From the UHGV virus genome UHGV-0205323: a DNA stretch of 26,989 nucleotides. One strand, written 5' to 3'. The notes beneath the pieces were generated by a model, which did no database searches, was not told where the DNA came from, and worked only from the letters and a program-made list of their open reading frames with translations. Each line of letters begins with the position of its first letter. Positions within the stretch are counted from its first letter, which is position 1. This document shows positions 4,343 to 16,832 of the stretch, in pieces. A program made the position numbers and the translations under genes. The DNA is from a virus.

Positions 4343-4514
4343 GGAATTTACCATGAGAGGACTTGCATACAATCCCGGCATTCTTCCGGCAGAAATGATT
4401 ATTCGCCAACGCGTAAAGCCAATGCCATCGAGAGATGGAATTGCTTAAGAGAAATTCTTTTCCGTCAGTGAATCAAAACAAATATCTGAATGCGATGTGG
4501 CGGAGTGGGAAAAA

Positions 4515-4868
4515 ATGAAACAAATGTCACTAATTGAGATGGATGGATTTCTGAAAGGTAAATGCATACCACGAGATTTAAAGGTTAACGAAACAAACGC
4601 TGAATATCTGGTGCGTAAATTCGATGAAGTACGTGCTGAGGCTCGCAACGAGGGTATTAACTATACCGCAAGCCGTCTTGCTGCTGCGTTCAATCACGGA
4701 TTTATCAATAAGTCTTTACGTGAAGTTTTCGACGTTACGCGCATGATTCTGTCAGCGAAAGAAGAGTTGGCTAATGAACCGCATCCGATTGATGGCCTGT
4801 CCGGTGAATATGCAGAGAAATCCCTTGAAGAATGGGCGGAACGGCTTCGCAAAGGAGGCAGCCAGTGA
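4515..4868 (+). CDS. hypothetical protein (117 aa from ATG 4515; track ORF starts at 4497)
   Basis: GGAG RBS upstream of ATG 4515; stop TGA overlaps the GTG start of the downstream methyltransferase ORF (GTGA). Confidence 0.5.
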   Translation: MKQMSLIEMDGFLKGKCIPRDLKVNETNAEYLVRKFDEVRAEARNEGINYTASRLAAAFNHGFINKSLREVFDVTRMILSAKEELANEPHPIDGLSGEYAEKSLEEWAERLRKGGSQ

Positions 4869-5350
4869 CTGGACATGCAGCAATCCTCGACATGTGCTGT
4901 GGCAGTCGCATGTTCTGGTTCGATAAGAATGACGACCGGGCGATATTTAGTGATATCAGAAAGGAAGAGCACACATTGTGTGATGGACGACGCCTGATTA
5001 TCAGTCCTGACCTGATAGCTGATTTTCGTGCACTACCATTTGCAGACGCATCCTTTTCGATGGTTGTATTCGACCCTCCGCATCTTGAGCGTGTTGGTGA
5101 TAACGCTTGGATGGGAAAGAAATATGGACGGCTGAATAAAGATACCTGGCGTGATGATTTACGGCAGGGATTCAAAGAAGCCTTTCGTGTGTTGTGGCCA
5201 TACGGCGTTCTGATTTTTAAATGGAATGAAACGCAAATACCTGTTCGCCAGATATTGGCACTGACCGACAGAAAGCCTGTTATCGGTCAACGAACAGGAA
5301 AGGGTGACAAGACCCACTGGATTATTTTTATGAAGGAGGGCAACCAGTGA
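4865..5350 (+). CDS. putative SAM-dependent DNA methyltransferase (orphan, small)
   Basis: Motif I-like DMCCGSR followed about 65 residues later by DPPH (motif IV-like, as DPPY/F/W in amino-methyltransferases); likely GTG start at 4865 overlapping the upstream stop; no adjacent restriction endonuclease candidate. Confidence 0.55.
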   Translation: MTGHAAILDMCCGSRMFWFDKNDDRAIFSDIRKEEHTLCDGRRLIISPDLIADFRALPFADASFSMVVFDPPHLERVGDNAWMGKKYGRLNKDTWRDDLRQGFKEAFRVLWPYGVLIFKWNETQIPVRQILALTDRKPVIGQRTGKGDKTHWIIFMKEGNQ

Positions 5351-11404: not shown

Positions 11405-11470
11405 ATCAATAATACCTCGTAAGTTTTGTTGATACCGAAGCCCTGACTGTTACAGCAGTTGGGGCTTCAA
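11377..11470 (+). ncRNA. candidate sar-like antisense RNA opposite the arc-ant junction and ant RBS
   Basis: Plus-strand terminator hairpin GAAGCCC...GGGCTTC followed by AACTTTTT (11434-11470) antisense to arc/ant; candidate promoter -35 TTGACG 11343-11348 with -10 TATTAG 11365-11370 inside the ant 5' end; 5' end uncertain. Confidence 0.3.
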
Positions 11471-11728: not shown

Positions 11729-11965
11729 ATGTCACGCGAAGAGCCGCAAATAAATATCAGGATTTCCAAAGAGTTAAAGGCAAAGGTTAAAGCCAGGGCG
11801 CAACATAACAAGCGTTCCATGAATGCTGAAATAATACAGATTATCGAAGATGCTGTTTGTGGTAGATCGCTTAATAGCAATGAATTTGCTCAGAAAGAGG
11901 CTGACAAATTCAGGGATGCGCTACTTGAAACACTGAAAACCATGTATGGTAAGGATGAAAAATAA
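11729..11965 (+). CDS. mnt: Mnt-like ribbon-helix-helix repressor
   Basis: N-terminus MSREEPQINIRISKELKAKVKARAQHNKRSMNAEIIQIIEDAV parallels P22 Mnt (ARDDPHFNFRMPMEVREKLKFRAEANGRSMNSELLQIV, recalled); divergent from arc-ant. Confidence 0.75.
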   Translation: MSREEPQINIRISKELKAKVKARAQHNKRSMNAEIIQIIEDAVCGRSLNSNEFAQKEADKFRDALLETLKTMYGKDEK

Positions 11966-12501
11966 TGCTGCACACAATTCATTTCTTATGCCCCGTTAAC
12001 ACTGCCACTGTTGGGCAACTTCAGAACCACTGTCTCACCGCATTATCTCAAGGCGCAACTGAATTAAATATCCATATATCAAGTCAGGGAGGGGAAACTG
12101 CCGCTGGTTTTACTGCGTATAACTTTCTTAAGTCACTCCCTGTTACCGTTAGAACTCACAACATAAGCAATGTTGAATCCATAGCTAATATCGTTTTCCT
12201 GGCTGGCTCAGAACGTTTCGCAAACCCATTATCAAGATTCCTGTTACATCCTCTATTATGGGGCTTTGCCACCCCAGCCGCCGACCATGCCAGATTGAGA
12301 GAGTACGGGAAATGCCTCGATAACGATCTTGATCGCTTCGTTGAGACGTTCAATATCGACATCGGAACCCATATTAGGTGGGCATCCCTGATAGCAGACT
12401 CGACCATTTTGGATGCTAACAAGGCTCTTGAGCATGGCATAATTAATTCCATAAAAACTGCAAGGCTGGTATCCAATCAGGCAAACTGGTGGGTTGTTTG
12501 A
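11965..12501 (+). CDS. ClpP-fold serine peptidase-like protein, translationally coupled to mnt
   Basis: ATG overlaps the mnt stop (TAATG); sequence aligns by eye to the E. coli ClpP core (IHISSQGGETAAGFTAYNFL vs [20 protein letters not shown]; Ser in SNVESIANI at the GQAASMGA position; His in FLLHPL at the MIHQP position; C-terminal LEHGIINSI vs VEYGLVDSI). Confidence 0.6.
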   Translation: MLHTIHFLCPVNTATVGQLQNHCLTALSQGATELNIHISSQGGETAAGFTAYNFLKSLPVTVRTHNISNVESIANIVFLAGSERFANPLSRFLLHPLLWGFATPAADHARLREYGKCLDNDLDRFVETFNIDIGTHIRWASLIADSTILDANKALEHGIINSIKTARLVSNQANWWVV

Positions 12502-12578
12502 TGGGTAAATCATGATTACTCCTATGGCAGGAAAGATTCGCATCCTTAAATTTAGTGAGCAAGGATTACCATCACACC

Positions 12579-12764
12579 TTAACAGCCTCCGCGTCCACGA
12601 GTAATTCTATTGCGGATTTGCTTCTTGCGGTGGTTTAAGCTGGAGAGCCTGGCTTCTGCTTCTGATATTTGCGCATCAAGATCTTTAAGCTCAAGATCTG
12701 AAAGTCGCTGGTCAAGCAGGGTTTGGTTCAACTCAATGTTGTTCAGGCGTTCTTCTATGGTCAT
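12579..12764 (-). CDS. small coiled-coil protein (61 aa), hypothetical
   Basis: AAGGAG RBS 5 nt upstream of ATG 12764; heptad-like Leu-rich sequence; start lies immediately downstream of the lipoprotein-gene terminator. Confidence 0.45.
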   Translation of the reverse strand: MTIEERLNNIELNQTLLDQRLSDLELKDLDAQISEAEARLSSLNHRKKQIRNRITRGRGGC

Positions 12765-12772
12765 GATTACTC

Positions 12773-12802
12773 CTTATAAAAAACCCACCTGACGGTGGGT
12801 TT
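12773..12802 (-). terminator. rho-independent terminator downstream of the lipoprotein gene (minus strand)
   Basis: Perfect 9-bp stem AAACCCACC / GGTGGGTTT with 4-nt loop, followed on the minus strand by TTTTTTAT. Confidence 0.6.
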
Positions 12803-12808
12803 CATTTC

Positions 12809-13240
12809 TTAATCTTGCTTTGTAGACGGTATAAGGGATGCGTTTGCCTCTTTTGGCTTCAAGGTATACATCCCACCATTAAATGGATCAACAGCAAGCC
12901 AACCAATTAACCCACCAAACACAAGGTTTCCACCAATATACCAACCATTAGCATTGGCTTTGATTGGCAGGGTAACTGGTTCGTACCCATCCTTCTCCAT
13001 AGTGATCTGGTAGCTCTTTTTGCCAAAATAACTACCATCTGACTTGGCAAGAGTTACTCCTTGCGGGGTCTTACCTTGCGCAACAATCACGCCTGATTCG
13101 TCTTTTACCTTAAAGCTCGCACCGGAAGGATTGCTGTTCACTTGCACAAGCTGTGTTTCGTCACCAACAATAGTTGCGCACCCAGATAACATGATAGCGC
13201 CAGCAACGACGCTAATAATCCTCTTCATATCAATTTCCAT
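12809..13240 (-). CDS. lipoprotein (signal peptide with lipobox LSGC); candidate superinfection-exclusion or surface-modifying moron
   Basis: N-terminus MKRIISVVAGAIMLSG-C has a type II signal peptide and lipobox; Gly-rich C-terminal segment WYIGGNLVFGGLIGWLAVDPFNGGMY; followed by its own terminator; alternative start ATG 13228. Confidence 0.6.
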   Translation of the reverse strand: MEIDMKRIISVVAGAIMLSGCATIVGDETQLVQVNSNPSGASFKVKDESGVIVAQGKTPQGVTLAKSDGSYFGKKSYQITMEKDGYEPVTLPIKANANGWYIGGNLVFGGLIGWLAVDPFNGGMYTLKPKEANASLIPSTKQD

Positions 13241-13323
13241 ATCTAAAAAACCGGAAACATCCTAATGACAAACCATTCAAATGTGAAGCACGAGATAAGA
13301 TCAATCCATCCGTGGACGACTAA

Positions 13324-15459
13324 TTACTCCTGTGTCATTCCGCTTAGCGATGCCACAATCCCAGCCCTCGACAAACGCTGGAACTCTTCGTTTCCTAATG
13401 CATCGCGAATTGCTTTTACGGCGGCCTTATTTGCCATAAATCTGCGTTCCGCCGCCGCTAATGCGCCATCACTTGCCCCAACCTTAACTGCCTTTGTTGC
13501 CTCTTGAACAGCCTTTTCAATAGCGTAACGACCACTTCTGGTTGCGGATAATTTCGCTATCGATCCTTTTGCTATCGCATCAATTGCTCCACCTGCAGCG
13601 CCACCAACTATTGCTCCAATAACACCTCCTCCAGAGAACCCTGCGATAGCGCCAGCGGTTGGAAAAGCGCCAGACAATACGCTCTCTAAAACTGGATGAA
13701 GGCCATTCTCAAGAGTGCTAATGGCTGGCATAGAGCGCCCTGTCTGTTCAACATATCGAAGTGGCTTTGTTGCAGCTCTTGCAAGTTCTCCGTATGAACT
13801 TGTAATCCTGCCAAGTTCTGGAGAATATCGACTAATTGCCTTCACGTTTTGTGGGGTAAGAATAGTCGCGATATGCTTAATTCCAGCCTCTTCAGACTTA
13901 CCTCCGCGTACCCCTTGCGATACCGCATCTTGTAATATTGATGCAATTGCTGGCGCGCGTTCCGACTCAGGTAGGGCGCTTATTATTTTATGAAACTGAC
14001 CTGTTCCACTTTTTGCTGAGCCCTGTAACGCCTTAGAGCCATTAGTTACTAACTGATCAGTTGCAAGGTCTCTACCAAACGCTGCTTCAGCCTGTTCTTG
14101 TGCTGTAAATCTTGCTTTTGACAGATCATTAGCTTTTTGCCAGTCATCAAGAAAACCGCCATTTTGAGCCATTATGCGCATATCTTCCGTTGCTGCATCA
14201 CGAAGCTCAGCCATGCGCCTTGCCGTATTTGCCTCACCAGACCTTATATACTTCTGCTCTGCGTCAGCAAGTTTACTTCGCCATGCCTTCATGGCATCAA
14301 ACGTGATTCCTTTTTTACCAGTTTTAGCATAAGCAGATGCGAATTGTTTCATCTCAGGAGTTAGCGGCATGCCAGCCAAAATATCACCCTGAATTGTAGC
14401 GTTCAGGTTTGACATTCTGGCCTTTGCGTCAGGCATCGTGGAGCGGACGCTATCCCATGCAGCCTTTTCTGAATTTTTCATTTTATCAATACTTGCCAAA
14501 ACCCTTTGTTTTATGGCTGCACTTTTTTCTGATGCAGTTCCTGCTTCAGCCCCAAACTCATCCAATGCTGAGTTAAATTTCGACTCTATTTCACTGAATG
14601 CTTTGGTGTGTGCATCCTGTGTAATTCCGGGCTTTGACGCCAGAATCCCCTCCGCCTGAGCAAGACCACGACTACCTGATCTCATGCCAGGAGTTAATGC
14701 GTTGATATCTATTCCAGCAGTATCTGCTGCTTTTGCTATTTCGTCTGACACATTAGCTGACTGTCTGGCAATAATCTCTCTTCCTGTACCAGACTTTGCC
14801 ATTTTCGAAACATCAGCAGCGGAATTTATTGCCCCGCCACCAAGAACTTGAGGTGATTTAGAGGTTAAGATCCTTCCAGCCCCAGAAAGTATCCCCTGAG
14901 TACCAATATTGATACCACCGTTAATGGCAGCATTTTGTGCAAAATCGCCCTCCTGATTTGCAGCATCAGCAAGAGAACCGGCAATCATGTTTCCTGCGGA
15001 ACCGATATCTCCAGCGAGCTTTGCTGTCGCTCCAGCAGCTTTTGCCGCTGTGCCAATTGGCAGGAGATACCCACCAATTGTTTCACCGGCTTGCGCATAA
15101 GGGTCTGTCGGTCTGTCTACTGGACGATAAACATCATCCAAAACCTTGGGTCCACCAAGCCCCTGACTGATTGCATTAATCAGACTTGCGCCGCCCTGCA
15201 ATACGTCAAATGGTATGTTTACCAGACCACGACCAGCCTGTTCTGCAATTTGCCCTGCACTTTGACCACCAGTGAGCCAATCGCCAGCTTGTTGCATCAA
15301 TGATGGTTCTTCCCGTGTTGGTGCATTATTGGCCTGATTAACTGTTTGTTGCTGAACAGCCTGACCAGCAAAATACTCATCAATGGCGGTGCCAATATCT
15401 TCCGTGCTCGTACCATCAGGGAAGGTAAATGTCTTACCGTTTGCAGTTACTTTCATCAT
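13324..15459 (-). CDS. ejection (internal virion) protein, P22 gp16-like
   Basis: 711-aa Ala/Gly-rich protein in the position of P22 gene 16 after gp7 and gp20; start overlaps the gp20 stop; assignment by synteny and composition. Confidence 0.65.
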
Positions 15460-16832
15460 TCCACCGTAAATTGAATGCCTGATTTTGACGTGTAGCTACC
15501 TCCTGCTGATTGCTGAGTAGCTGGCTGTTGCCTTGATGATTTCTTCCCGCTATTACCAACATTAACGTTATATTGCTGGTTGTAATTGTCGGTATATTGC
15601 TGAATGTCGCGCATTGATTGTTGTAGTGCTTCAGGGCTTGAGAAATCAACCTGTGGCATACCTTGAAAATACATCTTTGCTTCTGCAACGGTGTTGATAC
15701 CAGATGCCCCCATGTCTCTGGCTGCTGCAATGCCCTGATTCTGCATCTTTCCTTGGATTCGCTGTGCAGCGTTGTATAGTTTCCTCTGATCACCACCAGA
15801 TGCACGGCTACGAATATCTGCACCAAGAGCAGGAGAACCTGAAGAGCCTGTAATGCCAGTCATGAAGCCAAGATCGTCAATTGATGCGCCAGAAATTGCA
15901 TCAAGATCTTTCTTCATTGCGTAATTCTGCGCGCTTGCTGCCGACGTGGCCGGAGCAGCAATAGAGCCAGCAGGAACGCGAACCATGTTCCCCTCATTGT
16001 CTATACCTTCGTAGAACGCGTTAGCACCAGCACCATGAAGCTTCCCGCCTACGGTTACAGTTCTGCCATCTGCTAACTGAACTGTACGCTCATTATTCCC
16101 AACCGCCCCTTTCATTGATGCTCTCTGCATCGATAAATCCTGACCGCGCATCGTGATATTCTGACCTCGTGCTGTTAGCGCCTCGCCAGCCTGATTGCTG
16201 CGGATTGTCTCTGCAAGTTTTCCGCGATCAATCTCACGCCCAACGATTCTGTCTTGCGCCTGAAAATATTGTTCTGGACCAAGTGCAGCCATTCCAAGGT
16301 GATCAACAAACTCTGTGAAACCTTGTGGATTTTGCTGATACATTTTCGCCACATCCAGAGGGTCTACTCCGGCACGAGTAAGCTCAGATGAGTTGTTCTG
16401 CAACCATGACATCATGGCTTCTGGAGATGAAGCTGCGAGTCTGGCACTTGCTGCCAGTGTACCGACAGTGGAACGCTGGTCTTCATCGACAAATTTCATG
16501 CCGTTTCTTACAGCGTCAAACTGCTCAGGATACTGTGATGCCAGTTTTCGCATTGCATCGCGGTCACCAGATATATATGCATCAGCATAAGCCTGCTGAA
16601 ACTCTTGCTGTCGCTTCTGCTGATCCATCTGCTTATACATATCCATGACAGATGAAATGCCCTGCAAAGCCTGCAAGCCAACGTTATTACGTCCTGAACG
16701 CTCCATCTCGTTATTCTGTCGAATGTATGCAAGCGTGGCGTCTGCATCACTTGCTCTTGGAGCGTTGGAGTTCATGCCGCCTAACCCGGCAAGAAGCGCG
16801 CCTGAATTACCAGCCTGTTGCCATGTAGCCAA
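15456..16832 (-). CDS. ejection (internal virion) protein, P22 gp20-like
   Basis: 458-aa protein between the gp7-like and gp16-like genes; synteny with the P22 7-20-16 ejection cluster. Confidence 0.65.

What the first reader, a model, noticed from the sequence alone, without database searches (positions are those of the whole stretch)
12773..13323. Terminator-flanked lipoprotein moron at the position where P22 carries sieA
A 143-aa protein with a clear lipobox (LSG-C) and a Gly-rich C-terminal segment sits between the last ejection gene and immI. It is followed by a perfect 9-bp-stem terminator, and a possible promoter (TTCACA, 17 bp, TAGGAT) lies in the 83-bp gap upstream, which is the layout of an autonomously expressed moron. 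Phage lipoproteins at comparable positions (T5 Llp, phi80 Cor, as recalled) block receptors or DNA entry, so this is a candidate exclusion factor of an unrecognised family.
Basis: partly seen in the sequence, partly recalled or inferred. Interest (0 to 1): 0.6.

Follow-up and report, generated by a model that had tools for sequence, protein, structure and literature searches.

The report
Prophage-expressed lipoprotein moron, function unknown
A P22-like E. coli prophage carries a small, self-contained gene for an envelope lipoprotein; a near-identical copy in another strain is transcribed while the phage lies dormant, and whether it blocks other phages or simply toughens the host envelope is untested.

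Summary
On the minus strand, 13228..12809 encodes a 139-aa lipoprotein precursor, not 143 aa, because the upstream ATG is not conserved. It has lipobox LSG|C (Cys17, Ala at +2), a conserved Gly/aromatic segment, a 10-bp terminator hairpin (-16.2 kcal/mol) and a TTCACA-17-TAGGAT promoter-like site. It lies between the gp16-type ejection gene and the immI region.

It is the epsilon34 gene 15 / phrog_6823 family, listed as unknown function since 2008. The moron reading is well supported:
- Mosaic homology breakpoints lie at the promoter and just past the terminator hairpin (12778-13288).
- Both promoter hexamers survive in phage Gally although the spacer has diverged.
- Published RNA-seq of the Gally lysogen shows the 98.6%-identical gene at repressor-like levels while the adjacent injection genes are silent.
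- Homologs of 68-77% identity sit in three other positions of siphovirus tail clusters.

The exclusion function is untested. The family is also a widespread chromosomal singleton in Proteobacteria, and the mature protein is invariant (dN/dS 0.01-0.05). This points to a conserved envelope activity rather than a receptor-specific blocker. Fold search gives only a generic PEGA/transthyretin-like sandwich. Verdict: a real but ordinary kind of element whose function is open; moderate interest.

The parts
13259..13287 (-). sigma-70-like promoter: -35 TTCACA (13287..13282), 17-nt spacer, -10 TAGGAT (13264..13259), about 30 nt upstream of the ATG at 13228
   Evidence: One search gives 9 of 12 matches. 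One search shows both hexamers and the spacing kept in epsilon34, E92 and Gally (TTCACG-17-TAAGAT), although the Gally spacer sequence differs. Transcription of the Gally ortholog must start in this intergenic region, because the upstream gene is silent and the neighbour is divergent.
12809..13228 (-). lipoprotein gene, 139-aa precursor (epsilon34 gp15 / phrog_6823 family); the alternative upstream ATG at 13240 gives 143 aa and is not conserved
   Evidence: phrog_6823, E 2.6e-86, full length; 99.3% identical to epsilon34 gp15; dN/dS 0.01-0.05.
13178..13228 (-). signal peptide (residues 1-16) plus the lipobox cysteine, LSG|C (Cys17 codon 13180..13178); Ala at +2
   Evidence: Read directly from the sequence. 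Kyte-Doolittle maximum of 2.14 over residues 4-22. Cys17 and Ala18 are invariant in 45 homologs.
12950..13156 (-). PEGA/transthyretin-like beta-sandwich, residues 25-93
12866..12949 (-). conserved Gly/aromatic hydrophobic segment, residues 94-121 (NGWYIGGNLVFGGLIGWLAVDPFNGGMY)
   Evidence: It holds the densest run of invariant columns in the family. The model shows a low-confidence helix at 101-116. My hand Kyte-Doolittle average is about 1.3, below the usual transmembrane threshold, and the segment is not among the top hydropathy windows.
12780..12803 (-). intrinsic terminator hairpin with a U run; also reads as a terminator on the plus strand
   Evidence: -16.2 kcal/mol, z -4.1. Conserved in epsilon34 and Gally with one loop change. 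Annotated as a terminator in epsilon34.
12778..13288 (.). mosaic module boundaries: the stretch shared with epsilon34. The upstream break lies 1 nt beyond the -35 hexamer and the downstream break 2-3 nt beyond the terminator hairpin, within its U tract.
   Evidence: In one search the epsilon34 match covers query 279-789. HK620 homology (end of gene 16 / hkcB) resumes at 13289.

Best explanation
This is a lysogenic-conversion cassette (a moron): promoter, one gene, terminator. It is inserted after the last ejection gene of a P22-like prophage.

Shown:
- The gene is intact and under strong purifying selection.
- Its module boundaries lie 1 nt upstream of the -35 hexamer and 2-3 nt beyond the terminator hairpin.
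- The 98.6%-identical copy in the Gally prophage of E. coli LF82 is transcribed in the lysogen at about the level of the C2 repressor in DMEM and inside macrophages. It is weakly transcribed in stationary LB. The adjacent injection genes stay at background throughout.

Inferred from sequence:
- The precursor is exported and lipidated at Cys17.
- Because residue +2 is Ala, the Lol system sorts it to the outer membrane.
- A PEGA-like beta-sandwich hangs in the periplasm.
- An almost invariant Gly/aromatic hydrophobic hairpin (residues 94-121) dips into the membrane or drives self-association.

Most likely role (inferred): it carries out the same envelope-intrinsic activity as its many chromosomal homologs, changing the lysogen's outer membrane or periplasm to the host's benefit. 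Phage exclusion is one possible consequence (about 0.3). It is more likely a general envelope effect than a receptor-specific block.
For: Cassette structure:
- Promoter, terminator and mosaic boundaries.
- Presence/absence polymorphism among P22-like phages.

Transcription of the ortholog GALLYPH_14 (PMC9928086 S1/S4), as log2 fpkm:
- Stationary LB: 6.2 and 4.8.
- DMEM: 9.8-10.5.
- Macrophage 1 h: 11.0.
- Macrophage 6 h: 9.4-9.5.
- Injection genes: 2.3-4.2.
- C2 repressor: 8.9-12.0.
- The pattern matches the known moron bor.

Selection and spread:
- dN/dS is 0.01-0.05, and the mature protein is identical in the window, epsilon34 and Gally.
- Family members sit as terminator-flanked inserts at three other places in siphovirus tail clusters.
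- An intact copy is kept in a decayed prophage remnant.

Conserved envelope activity:
- Chromosomal homologs at 50-60% identity occur in housekeeping contexts across Proteobacteria, and in some Enterobacterales.
- The family has 5565 clusters at E <= 0.001.
- One relative is fused to an OmpA-like beta-barrel, which fits an outer-membrane location.
- Fold.
Against: - No experiment addresses localisation, lipidation or phenotype for any family member.
- Transcription was shown for an ortholog whose promoter spacer and upstream neighbour differ, not for this window.
- The LF82 authors did not class the gene as a moron. It was 3.3x background in stationary LB, below their 5x cutoff.
- The hydrophobic segment is modelled with low confidence (pLDDT about 53-61), so its topology is a guess.
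- GC content does not differ from the flanking DNA.
- My test for phage context used a limited reference set. Some copies I call chromosomal could lie in unrecognised mobile elements.
Confidence: 0.55

Rival explanations
1. Superinfection exclusion factor. The outer-membrane lipoprotein blocks a post-adsorption step of incoming phages. Either it blocks formation of the trans-envelope channel by ejection proteins or the tape measure protein, or it masks a secondary outer-membrane receptor. It would be functionally analogous to Cor, Llp, the mEp Lpp proteins or SieA.
For: - It lies where P22 has sieA.
- The 68%-identical relative lies between the tail chaperone and the tape measure gene, exactly where HK97 carries its gp15 exclusion moron.
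- Other copies lie next to the tape measure gene or gene J.
- Phage lipoproteins encoded in structural clusters do exclude phages that use the same receptor (PMC11893012).
- HK97 gp15 also derives from a chromosomal envelope family, YebO.
- It is expressed in a lysogen.
Against: - No homology to any known exclusion or defence protein. The Cor match covers the signal peptide only (E 7.7e-4 in PHROGs, below cutoff in NCBIfam), and PADLOC gives no match.
- The same family, at 68-77% identity, is carried by podoviruses and several types of siphovirus in different genera. It is also chromosomal in non-phage contexts at 50-60% identity.
- The mature protein is invariant, with no sign of an arms race.
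- Position is weak evidence, because other morons such as a porin occupy similar sites.
Confidence: 0.3
2. A phage-cycle function rather than a prophage function, for example a lysis accessory or spanin-like lipoprotein, or an assembly or ejection helper expressed with the late operon.
For: It lies in the late-operon direction, directly after the ejection genes. Outer-membrane spanins are lipoproteins (PMC6139136, listed).
Against: - It is absent from most P22-like phages, including P22, HK620 and Emek, so it is not essential.
- It has its own promoter and terminator.
- It is transcribed when the late genes are silent.
- The lysis cassette of these phages is elsewhere.
- Chromosomal homologs exist without any phage.
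Confidence: 0.04
3. A hitch-hiking passenger with no selected function in the phage or the lysogen.
For: The function is unknown, and it is found in only 124 of 5426 complete E. coli genomes.
Against: - dN/dS is 0.01-0.05 at dS up to 0.28.
- The promoter hexamers are conserved across a diverged spacer.
- It has been captured repeatedly by different phages.
- It is retained intact in a degraded prophage.
Confidence: 0.05

Closest known systems
Salmonella phage epsilon34 gene 15 (ACF16641.1) / phrog_6823; Gally GALLYPH_14 (LF82_139)
   Same: The protein is 99.3% identical to epsilon34 gp15 and 98.6% identical to GALLYPH_14, and the mature part is 100% identical. Position in the 'ant moron' between gene 16 and mnt/immI is the same, as are the promoter hexamers and the terminator.
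   Different: In the window the divergent hkcB-like gene is absent, and a 61-aa ORF plus an Arc/ClpP-like operon follow instead of mnt. None of these genes has a known function.
HK97 gp15 moron (superinfection exclusion; YebO-related)
   Same: It is a single-gene moron expressed from the prophage and derived from a chromosomal envelope-protein family. The 68%-identical E. coli relative occupies the same slot between the tail chaperone and the tape measure gene.
   Different: gp15 is a small inner-membrane protein, not a lipoprotein. There is no sequence similarity, and gp15's exclusion activity has been shown experimentally while nothing has been shown here.
P22 SieA
   Same: Same genomic region (between gene 16 and immI), and both are prophage-expressed.
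   Different: SieA is an inner-membrane protein. No homology was detected: no PHROG match other than phrog_6823 passed E 0.01 apart from signal-peptide-only hits.
Cor (phi80/N15/HK022), T5 Llp and the mEp Lpp021/Lpp010 exclusion lipoproteins
   Same: These are small phage lipoproteins encoded in or near structural genes, and they act at the outer membrane.
   Different: They are about 60-80 aa and specific for one receptor (FhuA, OmpA or LamB). Here the Cor profiles match only the signal peptide (residues 5-24 or 5-33), and the fold and length differ. This family is not tied to one phage type or receptor type.
Lambda Bor/Iss lipoprotein
   Same: A prophage-expressed outer-membrane lipoprotein moron. 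In LF82 it shows the same expression pattern: low in stationary LB and high in DMEM and macrophages.
   Different: There is no Pfam or PHROG similarity. Bor's serum-resistance role has not been tested for this protein.
PEGA-domain proteins (PF08308) and the LEPBI_I2678 family (NF047662)
   Same: Beta-sandwich fold, with weak profile matches: PEGA E 0.0038, and LEPBI_I2678 E 6e-5 to 1.5e-6 for homologs.
   Different: All matches are below the curated cutoffs, and neither family has a known function.

Membership tests
Moron (Juhala/Hendrix sense) | Present in some and absent from other closely related phage genomes at the same site | tested here: met
   Present in epsilon34, Gally, 720R6 and E92. 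Absent from HK620, Emek, Kapi1 and SEN22, which match only the flanks.
Moron (Juhala/Hendrix sense) | Own promoter | tested here: met
   TTCACA-17-TAGGAT. The hexamers are conserved across a diverged spacer. The ortholog's transcript must start in this gap. The transcription start site has not been mapped.
Moron (Juhala/Hendrix sense) | Own terminator | tested here: met
   Terminators also follow the relatives in Proteus, Pseudescherichia and E. coli ED1a prophages.
Moron (Juhala/Hendrix sense) | Expressed from the repressed prophage | tested here: inconclusive
   Shown for the 98.6%-identical Gally ortholog in published RNA-seq. Not measured for this prophage.
Moron (Juhala/Hendrix sense) | Base composition different from flanking genes | tested here: not met
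   GC is 0.44-0.45 across the gene, against 0.44-0.50 in the neighbours.
Bacterial lipoprotein | Signal peptide ending in the lipobox [LVI][ASTVI][GAS]C | tested here: met
   MKRIISVVAGAIMLSG|C. Cys is invariant in 45 homologs.
Bacterial lipoprotein | Lipid modification, and outer-membrane sorting (no Asp at +2) | not testable with these tools
   Residue +2 is Ala (invariant), which predicts Lol sorting to the outer membrane. Lipidation and localisation need experiments.
PEGA domain (PF08308) | Score at or above the Pfam gathering threshold (20.8 bits) | tested here: not met
   17.5 bits, E 0.0038. Only 12 of 45 homologs match at E <= 0.1. The fold is compatible.
Cor exclusion lipoprotein (NF047972 / phrog_1119) | Profile match over the mature protein, above cutoff | tested here: not met
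   Only residues 5-24 or 5-33 (the signal peptide) match. 13.3 bits against a cutoff of 31.
Known anti-phage defence proteins (PADLOC-DB v2) | Any profile match | tested here: not met
   0 families at E <= 1.
Glycine-zipper lipoproteins (SlyB/Pcp, PF05433 and related Gly-zipper families) | Pfam match to a Gly-zipper family | tested here: not met
   No such family at E <= 1 for the protein, or at E <= 0.1 in any of 45 homologs. The resemblance is only compositional.
Lambda Bor/Iss | Pfam or PHROG match to the Bor family | tested here: not met
   No match.
Superinfection exclusion protein (functional class) | Reduces infection by superinfecting phage when expressed | not testable with these tools
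   No experimental data were found for any family member.

The most novel reading that the evidence does not exclude
The family is a new, broadly acting class of outer-membrane exclusion lipoprotein. Through its invariant Gly/aromatic hairpin it would alter the outer membrane or periplasm so that trans-envelope DNA conduits cannot form. This would cover P22-type ejection proteins as well as siphovirus tape-measure or tip complexes. It would explain why unrelated temperate phages place the gene beside their own DNA-delivery genes, and why bacteria keep chromosomal copies as a stand-alone defence.
Probability: 0.2. Interest if true: 0.65.

Novelty: new member of a known kind. Interest (0 to 1): 0.38.

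Why it matters
The gene occurs in about 2% of complete E. coli genomes (124 of 5426) and in Salmonella phage epsilon34. Relatives are carried by prophages of Proteus, Pseudescherichia, Phytobacter and others. They belong to a family of thousands of proteobacterial lipoproteins with no assigned function.

It is expressed in an adherent-invasive E. coli lysogen in cell-culture medium and inside macrophages, at levels equal to or above those of bor in DMEM and about equal at 1 h in macrophages. A defined phenotype, whether phage exclusion, serum resistance or stress resistance, would annotate a large family and add one more lysogenic-conversion function. It would also correct the published statement that prophage Gally carries no moron.

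As it stands, this is an ordinary type of element with an open function.

Tried and rejected
- Sequence search of the PDB gave only spurious RNA polymerase beta' hits (E 0.1-0.18).
- The BFVD search returned unnamed or structural proteins.
- The afdb50 library was unavailable.
- PADLOC gave no hit.
- NCBIfam gave only a sub-threshold match to the uncharacterised LEPBI_I2678 family.
- An all-against-all neighbour comparison over 80 genomic loci found no conserved partner gene. The only recurrent 'clusters' were antisense ORFs overlapping the gene itself.
- Longer relatives carry low-complexity Pro/Ala tails and, in one case, an OmpA-like barrel. None has a recognisable enzymatic domain.
- Literature searches by accession, locus tag and PHROG id found nothing. 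Searches on 'PEGA domain', lipoprotein and phage were uninformative.
- Base composition gave no horizontal-transfer signal.
- I looked for the relative that sits between the tail chaperone and tape measure genes in LF82 prophages Perceval and Tritos, hoping for a second expression data point. It is not there.
- I considered a C-terminal inner-membrane helix topology and think it less likely. The segment's mean hydropathy is about 1.3. The model's C-terminal strands (121-131, block pLDDT about 89) may pack back on the sandwich, though coordinates were not inspected. One relative continues into an outer-membrane barrel. This topology is not excluded.

Full report
**What is there**

The finding's coordinates cover a minus-strand gene and its flanks. 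The gene follows the gp20-like (16832..15456) and gp16-like (15459..13324; phrog_770, E 9e-221) DNA transfer genes. An 83-bp gap separates it from gp16 if the first ATG is used.

Downstream lie several further features:
- a hairpin terminator;
- a 61-aa coiled-coil ORF (12764..12579; phrog_7586);
- a plus-strand Arc-like plus ClpP-fold operon (11729-12501);
- a second Arc-like gene;
- an antirepressor gene;
- the tailspike gene.

The window is a P22-like (Lederbergvirus) E. coli prophage.

**Check of the observation**

- Start codon: the ORF from the first ATG is 143 aa. That ATG is ACG in phage Gally. Every annotation and the PHROG profile use the second ATG. The precursor is most likely 139 aa (13228..12809).
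- Lipobox: it starts MKRIISVVAGAIMLSG|CATIVG, a standard lipobox with Cys17 and Ala at +2. Both are invariant in 45 homologs.
- Gly-rich segment: residues 94-121 (NGWYIGGNLVFGGLIGWLAVDPFNGGMY) are the most conserved stretch of the family.
- Terminator: it folds as a 10-bp stem of -16.2 kcal/mol (z = -4.1) followed by a U run.
- Promoter-like site: TTCACA-17-TAGGAT (13287..13259) matches 9 of 12 positions. Such matches are not enriched in this region (3 found, 4.9 expected), so the pattern alone proves nothing.

**Is it an autonomous cassette?**

Four lines of evidence say yes.

1. Mosaic boundaries. Megablast homology with epsilon34 runs from 12778 to 13288. The upstream break lies one base beyond the -35 hexamer, and the downstream break 2-3 nt beyond the terminator hairpin. 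Homology to HK620 (end of gene 16 / hkcB) resumes at 13289. Other P22-like phages match only the flanks.

2. Promoter conservation. In Gally the spacer between the hexamers is unrelated in sequence. Both hexamers and the 17-nt spacing are nevertheless kept (TTCACG-17-TAAGAT).

3. Published stranded RNA-seq of E. coli LF82, a Gally lysogen (PMC9928086, tables S1 and S4). Values below are log2 fpkm.

| Gene | Stationary LB | DMEM | Macrophage 1 h | Macrophage 6 h |
|---|---|---|---|---|
| GALLYPH_14 (98.6% identical; mature protein identical) | 6.2 / 4.8 | 9.8-10.5 | 11.0 | 9.4-9.5 |

Across the same five conditions the upstream injection genes range from 2.3 to 4.2 and the C2 repressor from 8.9 to 12.0.

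The neighbour GALLYPH_13 is divergent, so the transcript must start in the short intergenic gap. The authors used only the LB data with a 5x cutoff. The gene was at 3.3x background, and they concluded that Gally has no moron. Their own tables show it behaving like bor, which reads 4.4/4.1 in LB, 8.1-8.5 in DMEM and about 11 in macrophages.

4. Recurrence in other phages.
- A 68%-identical relative lies between the tail chaperone T gene and the tape measure gene of E. coli lambdoid prophages.
- A 70%-identical one lies just upstream of the tape measure gene in Proteus prophages.
- A 77%-identical one lies between tail genes I and J in Pseudescherichia.
- Each is followed by a hairpin terminator.

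**Selection**

Between the window, epsilon34 and Gally, dS is 0.13-0.28 and dN/dS is 0.01-0.05. All amino-acid changes fall in the signal peptide. The gene alone is found in 124 of 5426 complete E. coli genomes, always on the chromosome. One of these is a decayed P22-like remnant in O111:H8, where the gene stays intact beside a frameshifted neighbour.

**What the protein is**

- PHROGs gives phrog_6823 (unknown function) at full length.
- Pfam gives only a sub-threshold PEGA match.
- Cor profiles match only the signal peptide.
- NCBIfam and PADLOC give nothing above their cutoffs.

AlphaFold2 with 45 homologs gives a mean pLDDT of 77.6. The model has three parts:
- a confident beta-sandwich (residues 25-93);
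- a poorly defined helix over the Gly-rich segment (101-116);
- two confident C-terminal strands.

**Distribution**

- A profile search finds 5565 clusters at E <= 0.001.
- A scan of one genome per species finds 303 loci.
- Outside Enterobacterales the homologs occur in Pasteurellaceae, Halomonadaceae, Azomonas, Mariprofundus and Betaproteobacteria. They are usually 157-171 aa with a C-terminal extension. They sit among housekeeping genes (accBC, panF, purL, fadBA) with no conserved neighbour.
- Within Enterobacterales, 8 of 28 loci have phage tail genes nearby by my limited test.
- Others lie next to mutS, murJ or ldhA.
- One relative is fused to an OmpA-like barrel.

The protein therefore belongs to a broad chromosomal lipoprotein family that temperate phages of enteric bacteria have picked up and equipped with expression signals.

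**Mechanism**

The following steps are shown:
- an intact, constrained gene;
- cassette structure;
- prophage transcription of the ortholog.

The following are inferred from established rules of lipoprotein biogenesis:
- export, lipidation at Cys17 and Lol sorting to the outer membrane;
- a periplasmic sandwich domain;
- a conserved hydrophobic hairpin that contacts the membrane or mediates self-association.

The phenotype is not known. Three observations bear on it:
- the mature protein is invariant;
- its closest relatives serve bacteria with no phage context;
- carriers include podoviruses and several siphovirus types.

From these I judge a conserved, envelope-intrinsic activity that benefits the lysogen to be most likely (0.55).

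Superinfection exclusion remains a live alternative or consequence (0.3). It is supported only by analogy and position:
- P22 sieA and HK97 gp15 occupy the same two slots;
- phage lipoproteins in structural clusters can exclude phages that use the same receptor;
- HK97 gp15 also descends from a chromosomal envelope family.

A lytic-cycle role or a functionless passenger is unlikely.

**Comparison and novelty**

The gene is a near-identical copy of epsilon34 gene 15. The kind of element, a lipoprotein moron in the P22 'ant moron' region, is known. It fails the membership tests for Cor, Bor, Gly-zipper lipoproteins, PEGA (by score) and all PADLOC families.

Three points are new here:
- recognition that this catalogued hypothetical is a lipoprotein cassette with conserved signals;
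- the finding that existing data show it expressed in a lysogen;
- the finding that it recurs at DNA-delivery gene junctions in unrelated phages.

This amounts to a new member of a known kind, of moderate interest, and its function can be tested with simple plating, fractionation and envelope-stress assays.

Noticed in passing
window 11729-12501 (+); also L003/L004/L007 about 14376-15411: Where P22 has mnt, this prophage has an Arc-like gene (78 aa) translationally coupled to a ClpP-fold protease gene (178 aa; PF00574, E 4e-12). The same block of Arc, Clp protease, Arc and antirepressor is inserted between tail genes L and K of E. coli lambdoid prophages. It looks like a portable immI-like module that includes a protease.
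   Followed up: partly
window 12579-12764 (-): A 61-aa coiled-coil ORF (phrog_7586, unknown function) has a strong AAGGAG ribosome-binding site directly after the lipoprotein terminator. It is shared with phages Emek and Kapi1, which lack the lipoprotein gene. How it is transcribed is unclear.
   Followed up: no
L095 (phage Gally) 5032-6071; PMC9928086 tables S1/S4: The LF82 study states that Gally has no moron. Its own tables show GALLYPH_14 and the divergent GALLYPH_13 at log2 fpkm of about 8-11 in DMEM and macrophages, against 2.3-4.2 for the adjacent injection genes. This is the same pattern as bor.
   Followed up: yes
L096 (E. coli O111:H8 strain 8E) 4501-4920: A decayed P22-like remnant next to cscA keeps the lipoprotein gene intact, while the upstream neighbour is frameshifted and most of the prophage is gone.
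   Followed up: partly
P0143 (365 aa, from the representative search): A family member is fused at its C-terminus to an OmpA-like transmembrane beta-barrel (PF01389, E 2e-15). In two Pasteurellaceae loci (L044, L068) the gene lies directly after an ORF with an exported, OMP-like N-terminus; this ORF was not profile-tested. Both observations hint at outer-membrane function. The fusion could be a gene-calling artefact.
   Followed up: no
L003-L006, about 12261-13425: The E. coli lambdoid prophages that carry the relative between the tail chaperone and tape measure genes also carry a porin gene (PF00267) between tail genes M and L. These tail clusters therefore hold several envelope morons.
   Followed up: no
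window 11437-11468 (+): A 14-bp-stem hairpin followed by a T run lies between the antirepressor gene and the minus-strand Arc gene. This is the position where epsilon34 and P22 have the sar antisense RNA, so it may be its terminator.
   Followed up: no
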